In this document: piece after piece, positions 19,064-27,439 of the stretch
Layout: each line of letters starts with the position of its first letter
Numbering within the stretch: position 1 is the stretch's first letter
Assembly: GCA_009914755.4 (NCBI GenBank)
Contig: CP068257.2
Location: forward strand, 24,256,001 to 24,320,000
Length of the DNA: 64,000 bases
Direction: 5' to 3'
Origin: the human T2T-CHM13v2.0 reference genome, Homo sapiens
The notes under the pieces: model-generated
The model's database searches: none
The model's input: only the letters and a program-made list of their open reading frames with translations
Told to the model about the DNA's origin: nothing
Program-made: the position numbers and the translations under genes

Positions 19064-19425
<362 letters not shown>

Positions 19426-19844
19426 TTATCATTGTAAACACTTTAAAGAAAACAACATCAAAAGATAATAATTTCATCTTCAAACAGCTAAATATTTTGT
19501 TTTTTCTTAGATATTCATGATCATTCATTTTGAGAAAAATAGCCTTATAAATAAAAGAACTGCTGAATAGGAAGCAGATGAATTCATCCAATATTCTTTT
19601 AATTATTAATCCACTAGCCAAATGTCTTCTAAGAATTTAACGGTCACATCTTACGATTAAAGAAAATAAAATTTATGGGCATTAAATCAATCAGTTATGT
19701 GTTACAAGTGTCAGTTATAATTACTGAACAGCTTCTTCCATCCACTGAACACAAGTGGGTTGGAGAAGAACATTTTCTTCATATAAAGGAGGTGCCACTC
19801 AGCCTTTTCCCTGTAAAGTCTGGCTGTTAAAGCTCTGATCTGAA

Positions 19845-20447
19845 TCTATCCATCTGACAAAGGTCTAATATCCAGAATCTACAAGGAACTTAAACAAATT
19901 TACCAGAAAAAAAAGAAAAACAACCCCATCAAAAAGTGGGCAAAGGATATGAACAGACACTTCTCAAAACAAGACATGTATGTGGCCAACAAACATATGA
20001 AAAAAAAAAAAAAAGCTCATCATCACTGGTCATTAGAGAAATGCAAATCAAAACCACAATGAGATACCATCTCACACCAGTTGGGATGGTGATCATTAAA
20101 AAGTCTGGCAACAACAGATGCTGGCGAGGATGCGGAGAAATAGGCACGCTTTTACACTGTTGGTGAGAGTGTTAGTTCAACCGTTGTGGAAGACAGTGAG
20201 GAGATTCTGCAAGGATATAGAACTAGAAATACCATTTGACCCAGCAATCCCATTACTGGGAATATACCCAAAGGATTATAAATCATTCTACTGTAAAGAC
20301 ACATGCACACATATGTTTACTGTAGCACTATTTACAATAGCAAAGACTTGGAACCAACCAAAATGTCCATCAACGATAGACTGGATAAAGAAAATGTGGC
20401 ACATATACACCATGGAATACTATGCAGCCATAAAAAAGGATGAGTTC
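19845..20447 (+). mobile_element. older L1PA 3' fragment, ORF2 C-terminal region (part 1), cut off by the young L1 insertion
   Basis: translates to ..[86 protein letters not shown]1 ORF2 cysteine-rich region, diverged from the adjacent young L1. Confidence 0.85.
20432..20447 (+). repeat. 5' target-site duplication of the young L1 (AAAAAAGGATGAGTTC)
   Basis: identical 16-mer at 26521-26536 immediately after the L1 poly-A tail region. Confidence 0.8.
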
Positions 20448-21355
20448 GGGAGGTGGGAGCCAAGATGGCCGAATAGGAACAGCTCCGGTCTACAGCTCCC
20501 AGCGTGAGCGACGCAGAAGACGGGTGATTTCCGCATTTCCATCTGAGATACCGGGTTCATCTCACTAGGGAGTGCCAGACAGTGGGCGCAGGCCAGTGGG
20601 TGCGTGCACCGTGCGCGAGCCGAAGCAGGGCGAGGCATTGCCTCACCTGGGAAGCGCAAGGGGTCAGGGAGTTCCCTTTCTGAGTCAAAGAAAGGGGTGA
20701 CAGACGCACCTGGAAAATCGGGTCACTCCCACCCGAATATTGCGCTTTTCAGACCGGCTTAAGAAACGGCGCACCACGAGACTATATCCCACACCTGGCT
20801 CGGAGGGTCCTACGCCCACGGAATCGCGCTGATTGCTAGCACAGCAGTCTGAGATCAAACTGCAAGGCGGCAGCGAGGCTGGGGGAGGGGAGCCCGCCAT
20901 TGCCCAGGCTTGCTTAGGTAAACAAAGCAGCCGGGAAGCTCGAACTGGGTGGAGCCCACCACAGCTCAAGGAGGCCTGCTTGCCTCTGTAGGCTCCACCT
21001 CTGGGGGCAGGGCACAGACAAACAAAAAGACAGCAGTAACCTCTGCAGACTTAAATGTCCCTGTCTGACAGCTTTGAAGAGAGCAGTGGTTCTCCCAGCA
21101 CGCAGCTGGAGATCTGAGAACGGGCAGACTGCCTCCTCAAGTGGGTCCCTGACCCCTGACCCCCGAGCAGCCTAACTGGGAGGCACCCCCCAGCAGGGGC
21201 ACACTGACACCTCACACTGCAGGGTATTCCAACAGACCTGCAGCTGAGGGTCCTGTCTGTTAGAAGGAAAACTAACAAACAGAAAGGACATCCACACCGA
21301 AAACCCATCTGTACATCACCATCATCAAAGACCAAAAGTAGATAAAACCACAAAG
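20448..21355 (+). promoter_or_regulatory. L1 5'UTR: internal sense promoter (YY1 box CAAGATGGCCG at 20462-20472) and antisense promoter region; CpG-rich
   Basis: 908-bp 5'UTR, near-identical to the young L1 5'UTR by recall. It contains many CpGs, whereas the flanks are CpG-depleted. Confidence 0.8.
20685..20900 (-). CDS. ORF0: L1 antisense ORF0 (71 aa, primate-specific ORF in the L1 5'UTR), intact
   Basis: minus-strand ATG at 20898-20900 (L1 position about 453) gives MAGSPPPASLPPCSLISDCCASNQRDSVGVGPSEPGVGYSLVVRRFLSRSEKRNIRVGVTRFSRCVCHPFL, then a stop at 20685-20687; position and length match the described ORF0. Confidence 0.6.
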   Translation of the reverse strand: MAGSPPPASLPPCSLISDCCASNQRDSVGVGPSEPGVGYSLVVRRFLSRSEKRNIRVGVTRFSRCVCHPFL

Positions 21356-22372
21356 ATGGGGAAAAAACAGAACAGAAAAACTGGAAACTCTAAAACGCAG
21401 AGTGCCTCTCCTCCTCCAAAGGAACGCAGTTCCTCACCAGCAACGGAACAAAGCTGGATGGAGAATGATTTTGACGAGCTGAGAGAAGAAGGCTTCAGAC
21501 GATCAAATTACTCTGAGCTACGGGAGGACATTCAAACCAAAGGCAAAGAAGTTGAAAACTTTGAAAAAAATTTAGAAGAATGTATAACTAGAATAACCAA
21601 TACAGAGAAGTGCTTAAAGGAGCTGATGGAGCTGAAAACCAAGGCTCGAGAACTACGTGAAGAATGCAGAAGCCTCAGGAGCCGATGCGATCAACTGGAA
21701 GAAAGGGTATCAGCAATGGAAGATGAAATGAATGAAATGAAGCGAGAAGGGAAGTTTAGAGAAAAACGAATAAAAAGAAATGAGCAAAGCCTCCAAGAAA
21801 TATGGGACTATGTGAAAAGACCAAATCTACGTCTGATTGGTGTACCTGAAAGTGATGCGGAGAATGGAACCAAGTTGGAAAACACTCTGCAGGATATTAT
21901 CCAGGAGAACTTCCCCAATCTAGCAAGGCAGGCCAACGTTCAGATTCAGGAAATACAGAGAACGCCACAAAGATACTCCTCGAGAAGAGCAACTCCAAGA
22001 CACGTAATTGTCAGATTCACCAAAGTTGAAATGAAGGAAAAAATGTTAAGGGCAGCCAGAGAGAAAGGTCGGGTTACCCTCAAAGGGAAGCCCATCAGAC
22101 TAACAGCGGATCTCTCGGCAGAAACCCTACAAGCCAGAAGAGAGTGGGGGCCAATATTCAACATTCTTAAAGAAAAGAATTTTCAACCCAGAATTTCATA
22201 TCCAGCCAAACTAAGCTTCATAAGTGAAGGAGAAATAAAATACTTTACAGACAAGCAAATGCTGAGAGATTTTGTCACCACCAGGCCTGCCCTAAAAGAG
22301 CTCCTGAAGGAAGCACTAAACATGCAAAGGAACAACCGGTACCAGCCGCTGCAAAATCATGCCAAAATGTAA
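21356..22372 (+). CDS. ORF1: L1 ORF1p (338 aa), intact
   Basis: MGKKQNRKTGNSKTQSASPPPKERSSSPATEQSWMENDFDELREEGFRRSNYSELREDIQTKGKEVENFEKNLEE...NNRYQPLQNHAKM; full length; only about 5 aa differ from L1HS ORF1p as I recall it. Confidence 0.95.
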   Translation: MGKKQNRKTGNSKTQSASPPPKERSSSPATEQSWMENDFDELREEGFRRSNYSELREDIQTKGKEVENFEKNLEECITRITNTEKCLKELMELKTKARELREECRSLRSRCDQLEERVSAMEDEMNEMKREGKFREKRIKRNEQSLQEIWDYVKRPNLRLIGVPESDAENGTKLENTLQDIIQENFPNLARQANVQIQEIQRTPQRYSSRRATPRHVIVRFTKVEMKEKMLRAAREKGRVTLKGKPIRLTADLSAETLQARREWGPIFNILKEKNFQPRISYPAKLSFISEGEIKYFTDKQMLRDFVTTRPALKELLKEALNMQRNNRYQPLQNHAKM

Positions 22373-22411
22373 AGACCATCAAGACTAGGAAGAAACTGCA
22401 TCAACTAATGA

Positions 22412-26260
<3,849 letters not shown>

Positions 26261-26478
26261 ACAATGAGATCACATGGACACAGGAAGGGGAATATCACAC
26301 TCTGGGGACTGTGGTGGGGTGGGGGGAGGGGGGAGGGATAGCATTGGGAGATATACCTAATGCTAGATGACGAGTTAGTGGGTGCAGCGCACCAGCATGG
26401 CACATGTATACATATGTAACTAAGCTGCACAATGTGCACATGTACCCTAAAACTTAAAGTATAATAAAAAAAAAAAAA

Positions 26479-26520
26479 GATTTGAATTTGCAAATACAAA
26501 AAAAAAAAAAAAAAGAAAAA
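26479..26520 (+). other. non-L1 19-mer GATTTGAATTTGCAAATAC followed by a second poly-A tract; candidate short 3' transduction or interrupted A-tail
   Basis: L1 3'UTR, then A13 (26466-26478), then gatttgaatttgcaaatac (26479-26497), then A17 g A11, then the TSD. Confidence 0.45.
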
Positions 26521-26536
26521 AAAAAAGGATGAGTTC
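26521..26536 (+). repeat. 3' target-site duplication of the young L1 (AAAAAAGGATGAGTTC)
   Basis: identical to 20432-20447; the sequence then continues the interrupted older L1 (GGATGAGTTCATGTCCTTTGCAGGGACATGGATGAAGCTGG). Confidence 0.8.
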
Positions 26537-26881
26537 ATGTCCTTTGCAGGGACATGGATGAAGCTGGAAGCCATCATCCTCAGCAAACTAACATAGGAAC
26601 AGAAAACCAAACACTCATGTTCTCACTCATAAGTGGGAGCTGAACAATGAGAACACATGGACACAGGGAGGGGGACATCATACACCAGGGCCTGTCCAGG
26701 GGTGGGGTGAAAGGGGAGGGAGAGCATTAGGACAAATACCTAATGCATGCGGAGCTTAAAACCTAGATGACGGGTTGATGGGTGCAGCAAACCACCAAGG
26801 CACATGTATACCTATGTAACAAACCTGCATGCTCAGCACATGTATCCCAGAACTTAAAGTAAACAAAGAAAAAAAAAAAAA
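26521..26881 (+). mobile_element. older L1PA 3' fragment (part 2): ORF2 end, 3'UTR and poly-A
   Basis: ..MSFAGTWMKLEAIILSKLTQEQKTKH.. then a 3'UTR with GGGTGCAGCAAACCACCAAGGCACATGTATACCTATGTAACAAACCTGCATGCTCAGCACATGTATCCCAGAACTTAAAGTAAAC and an A-tail at 26868-26881. Confidence 0.85.
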
Positions 26882-27439
26882 GCTCTGATTTGGACACCAG
26901 TGAGAATATGAAGTCCCTCGGCTTGCTGGATTTTCTTCTGTCTAGGATCGAACCTCCACTGCTATTACTATTTTTCTTCCTTTTTGATTCTTTTGGATCC
27001 CATGGAAAAATATTTATCTGCAACTTCTCCACAAAATGGAAATTTGTTTTTAATCTTATCTAACAGGAGATTCGCATATGACCAATTCTTATCTTTTAAA
27101 TAAAAATTTACTTATGTGCCTGCCTGAAAGGACTGAAGATCATACCTCTACGCTCTCTTCCATGTCCTTTCTTCTCTCTCCCCTGACACAGCTGCATTGG
27201 AAGTAGCTGTAAATGGGATGGACTAATTTTCCCTACCAAGAAGCCCCACTGTAAATCAGCGGTCACCCACTCCAGCTAGGCATTTTGCCCACACCAGGGC
27301 TATGAGATCAGATTTAATTTTCCAATCAGCAGTTCTGTGCATGTCTGATTCTTGGCTCAACATACAACTGCTATGCTGTTTATTATACTTCATCTCTCCA
27401 TGGCCTCTGAAACTCCCCAAGGCTCGGGTTCGTCATCCG

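What the first reader, a model, noticed from the sequence alone, without database searches (positions are those of the whole stretch)
26466..26536. Bipartite L1 tail: A13, a non-L1 19-mer, then a second A-rich tract before the TSD; possible short 3' transduction
The L1 3'UTR is followed by A13, then GATTTGAATTTGCAAATAC, which is neither L1 nor older-L1 sequence. A17-G-A11 follows, and only then the target-site duplication. An L1, its own A-tail, a unique segment, a second A-tail and then the TSD is the expected signature of read-through transcription from a source element into its 3' flank. The 19-mer ends in AATACA, a known weak poly-A hexamer variant, directly before the second A-tract. If it is a real transduction, the 19-mer tags the progenitor locus. 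The alternative is simply an A-tail interrupted by a short insertion.
Basis: partly seen in the sequence, partly recalled or inferred. Interest (0 to 1): 0.5.

Follow-up and report, generated by a model that had tools for sequence, protein, structure and literature searches.

The report
Short L1 3' transduction tag
A full-length young L1 retrotransposon carries 19 foreign bases between two A-tails, most likely a small piece of its parent's flanking DNA copied along with it, which is an ordinary and well-documented by-product of L1 copying.

Summary
The L1 3'UTR ends at 26465. A13 follows (26466-26478), then GATTTGAATTTGCAAATAC (26479-26497), then A17-G-A11. A perfect 16-bp target-site duplication, AAAAAAGGATGAGTTC, sits at 20432-20447 and 26521-26536 and brackets the whole composite.

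The element is a 6,018-bp non-Ta (L1PA2-like) L1 nested in an older L1. Joining the two halves of the host L1 gives uninterrupted L1 sequence, so the 19-mer was not in the empty site. It is not L1-derived, has no local template in the 64 kb, and cannot be a decayed A-tail (12/19 non-A against 1/42, p=3e-7).

The best reading is a partnered short 3' transduction of 19 nt, or up to 37 nt if the A17-G is templated. The L1's own AATAAA lies 29 nt upstream, within the 10-30 nt range. This suggests a progenitor with a short A-tail whose transcript was cleaved just inside its flank.

The decisive test, finding the source locus, cannot be run here because no primate genome is held. All 19-mer hits in the held collections were microbial chance matches. 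The phenomenon is known and the interest is low.

The parts
19829..19842 (+). 5' TSD copy of the older host L1 (AAAGCTCTGATCTG)
   Evidence: family D15: 13/14 match to 26879-26892.
19843..20447 (+). 5' half of the older, 5'-truncated host L1 (ORF2 3' part). Its last 16 bp are the target site of the young L1.
   Evidence: families D1, D2, D5 and D7: 87-90% identical to the young L1's own ORF2 region 25555-26152. Sequence.
20432..20447 (+). 5' copy of the young L1's target-site duplication, AAAAAAGGATGAGTTC
   Evidence: 16/16 identical to 26521-26536. The bottom strand reads TTTTTT/AT at the nick.
20448..26465 (+). Young full-length L1 body (6,018 bp). It has a 908-nt 5'UTR and an intact ORF1 (21356-22372). 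ORF2 (22436-26260) keeps its frame but has four stops at codons 361-375. The 3'UTR carries the GAG (non-Ta) trinucleotide at 26372-26374.
   Evidence: The ORF1p and ORF2p parts are near-identical to solved human L1 proteins.
26463..26468 (+). The L1's own AATAAA poly(A) signal. It ends 29 nt before the last base of the 19-mer.
26466..26478 (+). First A tract (A13). Inferred to be the progenitor's genomic A-tail, transcribed as template.
   Evidence: observation. The role is inferred.
26479..26497 (+). Unique 19-mer GATTTGAATTTGCAAATAC. Inferred to be transduced 3' flank of the progenitor, probably part of the progenitor's own 3' TSD. It contains the 10-bp palindrome ATTTGCAAAT at 26486-26495.
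   Evidence: unique in the window within 3 mismatches.: longest other sub-match is 11 nt.: palindrome.
26493..26498 (+). AATACA variant hexamer. It overlaps the 19-mer/A junction. It can only be a signal if cleavage was near G26515, 17 nt downstream.
26498..26520 (+). Second A tract outside the TSD (A17-G-A5), read as the poly(A) tail of the retrotransposed RNA. Alternatively, A17-G is still templated flank and only the last As are tail.
26521..26536 (+). 3' copy of the young L1's target-site duplication
   Evidence: family D6 starts at 26521.
26537..26878 (+). 3' half of the older host L1 (end of ORF2, 3'UTR and its own A-rich tail)
   Evidence: families D3, D4 and D6.: joining 20447 to 26537 gives continuous L1 sequence.
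26879..26892 (+). 3' TSD copy of the older host L1 (AAAGCTCTGATTTG)
   Evidence: family D15

Best explanation
This is a partnered, very short L1 3' transduction.

The proposed sequence of events is as follows.

1. A full-length non-Ta (L1PA2-like) progenitor elsewhere in the genome had only a short genomic A-tail, about 13 As.
2. Its transcript was not cleaved inside that tail. It was cleaved about 29 nt past the L1's own AATAAA, at a C|A dinucleotide inside the progenitor's 3' flank.
3. The mRNA therefore ended L1-A13-GATTTGAATTTGCAAATAC and then received a new poly(A) tail.
4. L1 endonuclease nicked the bottom strand of an older L1 at TTTTTT/AT.
5. The new poly(A) annealed there and target-primed reverse transcription copied the whole 6-kb RNA.
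6. Second-strand nicking 16 bp away produced the TSD AAAAAAGGATGAGTTC.

The 19-mer is thus a fossil tag of the progenitor locus, most likely the start of the progenitor's own 3' TSD. It has no function of its own.

A sub-variant fits equally well. The templated flank may continue through A17-G (37 nt in all), with cleavage directed by AATACA 17 nt upstream of the G.

Shown: the anatomy, the TSD, the foreignness of the 19-mer, its absence from the empty site, and the poly(A)-signal distances. Inferred: that the 19-mer comes from an L1 flank, and which hexamer was used.
For: - **Anatomy.** The order is L1 3' end, A13, unique 19-mer, A17GA5, then TSD. A single perfect 16-bp TSD pair encloses everything.
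- **Empty site.** The host L1 halves overlap by exactly the 16-bp TSD relative to the young L1's own copy (D1 ends at 26152 and D6 starts at 26137). Joining them gives uninterrupted L1 ORF2 sequence. The 19-mer therefore arrived with, or after, the insertion.
- **Not L1-derived, no local template.** No match within 3 mismatches in 64 kb on either strand. The longest other sub-match is 11 nt, at chance level.
- **Not a decayed A-tail.** 12/19 non-A against 1/42, p=3.3e-7.
- **Poly(A)-signal geometry.** AATAAA ends 29 nt before the end of the 19-mer, and AAAAAG ends 18 nt before it. The junction is C|A. The accepted range is 10-30 nt, as stated in PMC13009371.
- **Literature (PMC13009371).** About 25% of L1 insertions carry transductions. 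71% of those resolved by long reads are under 100 bp. 72% of partnered ones show two poly(A) tails. 79% of endpoints have a signal 10-30 bp upstream. One source yields a modal 37-bp tag.
Against: - The progenitor locus was not found and cannot be found with the held collections. All exact 19-mer hits (19 metagenomic, 1 viral, 23 prokaryotic) lie in microbial sequence, and none follows an A-run or an L1 end. The defining criterion of a transduction is therefore untested.
- 19 nt is shorter than the modal tags documented (37-85 bp).
- 29 nt is at the far edge of the 10-30 nt range.
- No downstream GU-rich element can be inspected, because it stays at the source.
- The same final structure would arise from a second, extremely 5'-truncated retrocopy landing at the TTTT/AT junction between the L1 body and its tail, or from an RT template switch.
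Confidence: 0.7

Rival explanations
1. Two RNAs rather than one. There are two forms.

(a) A second, independent retrotransposition of an extremely 5'-truncated copy (19 nt plus poly(A)) of some other polyadenylated RNA, or of an orphan transduction. It landed at the TTTTT/ATTATAC site that every L1 body/tail junction offers on the bottom strand, and its TSD is made of As and so is invisible.

(b) During the same TPRT event, the reverse transcriptase first copied 19 nt of another poly(A) RNA and then switched to the poly(A) tail of the L1 RNA, giving a chimeric retrotranscript.
For: - The final structure is indistinguishable from a transduction.
- The L1 body/tail junction reads TTTT/AT on the bottom strand, which is an endonuclease-like site (sequence).
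- L1 chimeras formed with other RNAs exist (abstract of bioRxiv 10.1101/2025.02.02.635956).
Against: - This needs an extra rare event. By my own rough estimate, not a computation, the chance per site of a secondary non-L1/non-Alu insertion truncated to about 20 nt is orders of magnitude below the roughly 25% share of L1 insertions that carry transductions (PMC13009371).
- The survey cited defines chimeric partners as insertions 5' of the L1. Here the partner would be 3' of a full-length L1.
- The 19-mer holds no AATAAA or ATTAAA. This is only weak evidence, since a signal could lie further upstream in the donor RNA.
Confidence: 0.12
2. A post-integration, non-retrotranspositional insertion of 19 bp into a once-continuous A-tail, for example filler DNA from end-joining repair or a templated replication error.
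For: The 19-mer has internal symmetry: a near tandem ATTTGA/ATTTGC and a perfect 10-bp palindrome. Only 1.4% of window 19-mers and 3% of shuffles of the 19-mer have a palindrome that long. Fold-back synthesis can produce such symmetry.
Against: - No template for it exists within 64 kb on either strand. The longest shared sub-word is 11 nt, 16 kb away, which is about what chance gives.
- An insertion of about 20 bp of novel sequence hitting one particular 40-bp tract is a rare event (inference).
- It would be a coincidence that the insert ends in C|A at a distance from AATAAA that fits poly(A) cleavage.
Confidence: 0.12
3. The 19-mer is simply a mutated stretch of a single long A-tail, or an A-tail-derived microsatellite.
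For: Old L1 and Alu tails do accumulate substitutions and evolve into A-rich microsatellites (title and abstract of PMC3812793, listed).
Against: 12 of 19 positions are non-A, including two TTT runs. The 42 flanking tail positions carry a single G (Fisher p=3.3e-7). The L1 body is only about 2-3% diverged at the protein level from active human L1.
Confidence: 0.01

Closest known systems
Partnered L1 3' transduction. Classic references, cited from reference lists only because the papers are not held: Moran 1999, Goodier 2000, Pickeral 2000, Szak 2003. Short-transduction landscape: PMC13009371, 2026.
   Same: - The order is L1 3' end, first poly(A), unique non-L1 segment, second poly(A), with one TSD pair around the whole.
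- The target is of endonuclease type.
- A poly(A) signal lies 10-30 nt upstream of the end of the unique segment.
- Two poly(A) tails are reported in 72% of partnered transductions.
   Different: - The tag is only 19 nt (37 at most), below the modal tags reported (37-85 bp). From memory, it is also below the length cut-offs of the early genome-wide catalogues.
- The signal used may be the L1's own AATAAA rather than a bypass to a downstream signal.
- The source locus is not identified.
Source element Xp22.2-1 in PMC13009371
   Same: It gives very short, stereotyped tags (modal 37 bp) because a poly(A) signal sits almost immediately after the L1, 9 bp downstream. This is the same principle of cleavage close to the L1 end.
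   Different: That element is an L1HS active in tumours, with a separate canonical signal in its flank. Here the element is an older non-Ta L1 fixed as a fossil, and no canonical signal lies within the 19-mer.
L1 chimeric retrotranscripts formed by template switching or RNA ligation (U6/L1 and others; bioRxiv 10.1101/2025.02.02.635956, PMC4476161)
   Same: Two unrelated sequences are enclosed by a single TSD pair and end in a poly(A).
   Different: In the survey cited the partner lies 5' of the L1. Here the foreign piece is 3' of a complete L1 and is separated from it by an A tract, as expected for a transcribed genomic tail.

Membership tests
Partnered L1 3' transduction | Complete L1 3' end, including its AATAAA, followed by an A tract (the source's genomic tail) | tested here: met
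   ...CTTAAAGTATAAT + A13, with AATAAA at 26463-26468
Partnered L1 3' transduction | A unique, non-L1 segment lies between the first A tract and the terminal poly(A) | tested here: met
   The 19-mer has no match within 3 mismatches on either strand of the 64-kb window, which holds a full-length L1 and an older L1. It is 12/19 non-A.
Partnered L1 3' transduction | A terminal poly(A) directly abuts the 3' TSD, and one TSD pair encloses L1 + tag + tail | tested here: met
   A17GA5, then AAAAAAGGATGAGTTC at 26521-26536, identical to 20432-20447 directly before the L1 5' end
Partnered L1 3' transduction | The tag is absent from the pre-insertion (empty) site | tested here: met
   The empty site was rebuilt from the host L1. 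Joining 20447 to 26537 gives continuous L1 ORF2 sequence collinear with the young L1's own copy (D1 and D6). Orthologous empty sites in other primates could not be examined.
Partnered L1 3' transduction | A poly(A) signal lies 10-30 nt upstream of the end of the transduced segment | tested here: met
AATAAA is 29 nt and AAAAAG 18 nt upstream of base 26497. Alternatively, AATACA is 17 nt upstream of G26515.
Partnered L1 3' transduction | The tag maps to the immediate 3' flank of a full-length source L1 elsewhere in the genome | not testable with these tools
   No primate genome is held. Exact 19-mer scans of metagenome, viral and prokaryote collections gave 43 matches, all microbial and none after an A-run or L1 end. 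Exact look-ups of four ORFs from this locus were not on record. The 19-mer does not occur in the paper library.
L1 endonuclease-dependent TPRT insertion | TSD of 7-20 bp, a T-rich bottom-strand nick site (TTTT/AA-like) and a poly(A) end | tested here: met
   16-bp TSD. The bottom strand reads ...CCTTTTTT/ATGG.
L1PA2-like (non-Ta) primate L1 subfamily | GAG rather than ACA at the 3'UTR diagnostic trinucleotide, a ~6.0-kb length with a ~910-nt 5'UTR, and near-identity to L1HS proteins | tested here: inconclusive
   GAG at 26372-26374, body 6,018 bp, 5'UTR 908 nt. ORF2p C-terminal 847 aa differ from solved human ORF2p at roughly 20 positions. ORF1p residues 106-329 are near-identical to 2yko. No subfamily consensus library was available, and the diagnostic positions are recalled from memory, so L1PA2 and short L1PA3 are not separated.
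Chimeric retrotranscript (RT template switch) | The 3' component is the 3' end of an identifiable second cellular RNA | not testable with these tools
   No transcriptome or genome of the host species is held.

The most novel reading that the evidence does not exclude
The tag is a 'micro-transduction' made without bypassing the L1 poly(A) signal. When a source L1's genomic A-tail has shrunk to about 13 As, cleavage directed by the L1's own AATAAA falls 10-20 nt into the flank. Every offspring then carries a tag under 30 nt that is essentially the parent's TSD. If this is general, such tags sit below the length cut-offs of most catalogues. They could be mined to rebuild parent-offspring trees for fixed L1PA2/L1PA3 elements in ape genomes.
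Probability: 0.3. Interest if true: 0.3.

Novelty: already known. Interest (0 to 1): 0.1.

Why it matters
If the reading is right, the 19-mer is a barcode of the parent element. A genome-wide search for (A)n-GATTTGAATTTGCAAATAC after an L1 end would identify the progenitor and any siblings of this L1PA2-like copy.

It would also add one example to the recently documented under-detection of very short transductions (PMC13009371). It illustrates that such tags need not involve read-through of the L1 poly(A) signal.

Beyond that it has no functional implication. The element has a broken ORF2 and sits inside another L1.

Tried and rejected
- **Collection scans for the 19-mer.** Exact scans of metagenome contigs (19 loci), viral contigs (1 locus) and genome contigs (23 loci) were run. 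Inspection of the flanks showed only microbial sequence, and none of the 43 matches is preceded by an A-run or an L1 end. These collections do not contain even this locus, so the negative result says nothing about a source element.
- **Exact protein look-ups.** The antisense ORF that spans the tail was tried with three start choices, and the intact ORF1p was also tried. None is on record.
- **Protein-homology search, not run.** I chose not to spend search for homologous proteins (13 CPU-h) on the antisense ORF. I judged the chance that the progenitor's flank had been gene-called in that collection to be a few percent at most.
- **Full-text search for the 19-mer**: no paper holds it.
- **Classic transduction papers.** PMC156586 and PMC310862 are not held, so their length thresholds are quoted from memory only.
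- **Rejected: decayed A-tail**.
- **Rejected: origin from L1, or from the Alu or other sequence in the window**.
- **Rejected: locally templated filler**.
- **Rejected: AATACA as the signal for cleavage at 26497**.
- **Considered, not tested.** The palindromic ATTTGCAAAT resembles POU/octamer-type motifs. I recalled this from memory only, and nothing here suggests function.

Full report
**Observation.**
- The L1 3'UTR ends ...CCTAAAACTTAAAGTATAAT at 26465, and its AATAAA is at 26463-26468.
- A13 occupies 26466-26478.
- GATTTGAATTTGCAAATAC occupies 26479-26497.
- A17 (26498-26514), G (26515) and A11 (26516-26526) follow, then GGATGAGTTC.
- At the other end, an older L1 runs up to ...GCAGCCATAAAAAAGGATGAGTTC at 20447. 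A full-length L1 begins at 20448 with GGGAGGTGGGAGCCAAGATGGCCGAATAGG.
- The target-site duplication is AAAAAAGGATGAGTTC, 16/16 identical, at 20432-20447 and 26521-26536. Six of the final eleven As therefore belong to the TSD, and the tail proper is A17-G-A5.

**Context.**
- The young element has a 6,018-bp body and a 908-nt 5'UTR.
- ORF1 is intact at 338 aa.
- ORF2 keeps its frame over 1,275 codons but has four stops at codons 361-375.
- Its proteins are nearly identical to solved human L1 ORF1p and ORF2p. There are roughly 20 differences over the C-terminal 847 aa of ORF2p.
- The 3'UTR trinucleotide that distinguishes Ta elements (ACA) from older ones reads GAG (the diagnostic is recalled from memory). 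It is therefore a non-Ta, L1PA2-like primate L1.
- It lies inside an older, 5'-truncated L1 (19843-20447 plus 26537-26878). That host has its own A-rich tail and its own TSD, AAAGCTCTGAT[C/T]TG, at 19829-19842 and 26879-26892 (D15).

**Was the 19-mer in the empty site?** The nesting allows the empty site to be rebuilt without an orthologous genome.
- The host's left half aligns to the young L1's own copy of the same ORF2 region up to 26152. The right half aligns from 26137 (D1 and D6). The overlap is exactly the 16-bp TSD.
- Joining 20447 to 26537 gives uninterrupted L1 sequence collinear with the young copy.
- Everything between the TSD copies, including the 19-mer, is therefore inserted material.

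**What the 19-mer is not.**
- It is not L1, Alu or anything else in the window. No site on either strand matches within 3 mismatches.
- It has no local template. The longest shared sub-word is 11 nt, 16 kb away, which is about chance level.
- It is not a decayed A-tail. 12/19 positions are non-A against 1/42 in the two A tracts (p=3.3e-7).

**Poly(A)-signal geometry.**
A signal hexamer acts 10-30 nt upstream of the cleavage site (stated in PMC13009371). AATACA at 26493-26498 overlaps the junction, so it cannot have directed cleavage at 26497.
- Reading 1: the L1's own AATAAA ends 29 nt before base 26497, and the variant AAAAAG at the end of A13 ends 18 nt before it. Cleavage falls at a C|A step.
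- Reading 2: the templated flank continues through A17-G, AATACA is the signal 17 nt upstream, and the tag is 37 nt.
- I favour reading 1 as the simpler one. A progenitor with a short genomic A-tail would have its own signal place cleavage just inside the flank. That is not read-through in the usual sense.

**Comparison with the literature.** PMC13009371 (2026) reports the following:
- about 25% of L1 insertions carry a transduction;
- 71% of those seen with long reads are under 100 bp;
- 72% of partnered ones show two poly(A) tails, one from the source and one new;
- 79% of endpoints have a signal 10-30 bp upstream;
- one source with a signal 9 bp past the L1 yields a modal 37-bp tag.

The anatomy here is the textbook one at the short end of the range.

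**The test that could not be run.** A transduction is proved by mapping the tag to the 3' flank of a source L1, and no primate genome is held.
- Exact scans for the 19-mer gave 19 metagenomic, 1 viral and 23 prokaryotic loci. All are microbial, and none is preceded by an A-run or L1 end.
- Even this locus itself is absent from those collections, so the negative result carries no information.
- Exact look-ups of four ORFs from this locus were not on record.
- The 19-mer does not occur in the paper library.
- I ran no further search on this, because the chance of catching the progenitor's flank there seemed too small.

**Rivals.**
- A second, extremely truncated retrocopy could have landed at the TTTTT/ATTATAC junction of the L1 body and its tail. 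Alternatively, an RT template switch from another poly(A) RNA could have occurred. Either would give the same structure. Each needs an additional rare event and an unidentified donor RNA. In the chimera survey cited, the partner lies 5' of the L1.
- A repair-type insertion into the tail cannot be excluded without orthologs. It has no local template, and it would have to mimic the C|A and distance features by coincidence. The 10-bp palindrome ATTTGCAAAT (1.4% of window 19-mers have one that long) is the only feature that leans slightly that way.

**Verdict.**
All locus-internal criteria for a short partnered 3' transduction are met, the AATACA argument is corrected, and the source remains unidentified.
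- Confidence in the transduction reading is about 0.7.
- The phenomenon is well known, and the element is a dead copy nested in another L1, so interest is low.

Noticed in passing
window 19829-26892: L1-in-L1 nesting. The older 5'-truncated host L1 has its own A-rich tail and a 14-bp TSD, AAAGCTCTGAT[C/T]TG (19829-19842 and 26879-26892). The young L1 inserted into the host's ORF2 at the sequence homologous to its own 26137-26152.
   Followed up: yes
window 21356-26260: The young L1 has an intact 338-aa ORF1. ORF2 stays in frame over 1,275 codons but carries four stops clustered at codons 361, 368, 374 and 375. That pattern suggests a short out-of-frame stretch from compensating indels rather than scattered decay. 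The rest of ORF2p is about 97-98% identical to solved human ORF2p.
   Followed up: partly
window 26486-26495: The 19-mer contains a perfect 10-bp palindrome, ATTTGCAAAT, and a near-tandem ATTTGA/ATTTGC. Only 1.4% of window 19-mers hold a palindrome that long. It resembles POU/octamer-type motifs from memory only, and no function was tested or is implied.
   Followed up: partly
window 26125-26610 (minus strand): A mechanical 161-aa antisense ORF runs from the host L1 through both T tracts and the 19-mer into the antisense of the young L1's 3'UTR and ORF2 end. It is not on record in the protein collection with any of three start choices and is almost certainly not a gene.
   Followed up: partly
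window 19065-19362: An Alu element with a pure tail of about 22 As lies roughly 480 bp upstream of the host L1. It is ordinary and is recorded only as context showing that this is primate DNA.
   Followed up: no
window 20448-20461: The young L1 starts GGGAGGTGGGAGCC. As I recall, the canonical start is GGGGGAGGAGCC. The element is thus full-length with a slightly variant first dozen bases. I could not compare it with a consensus.
   Followed up: no
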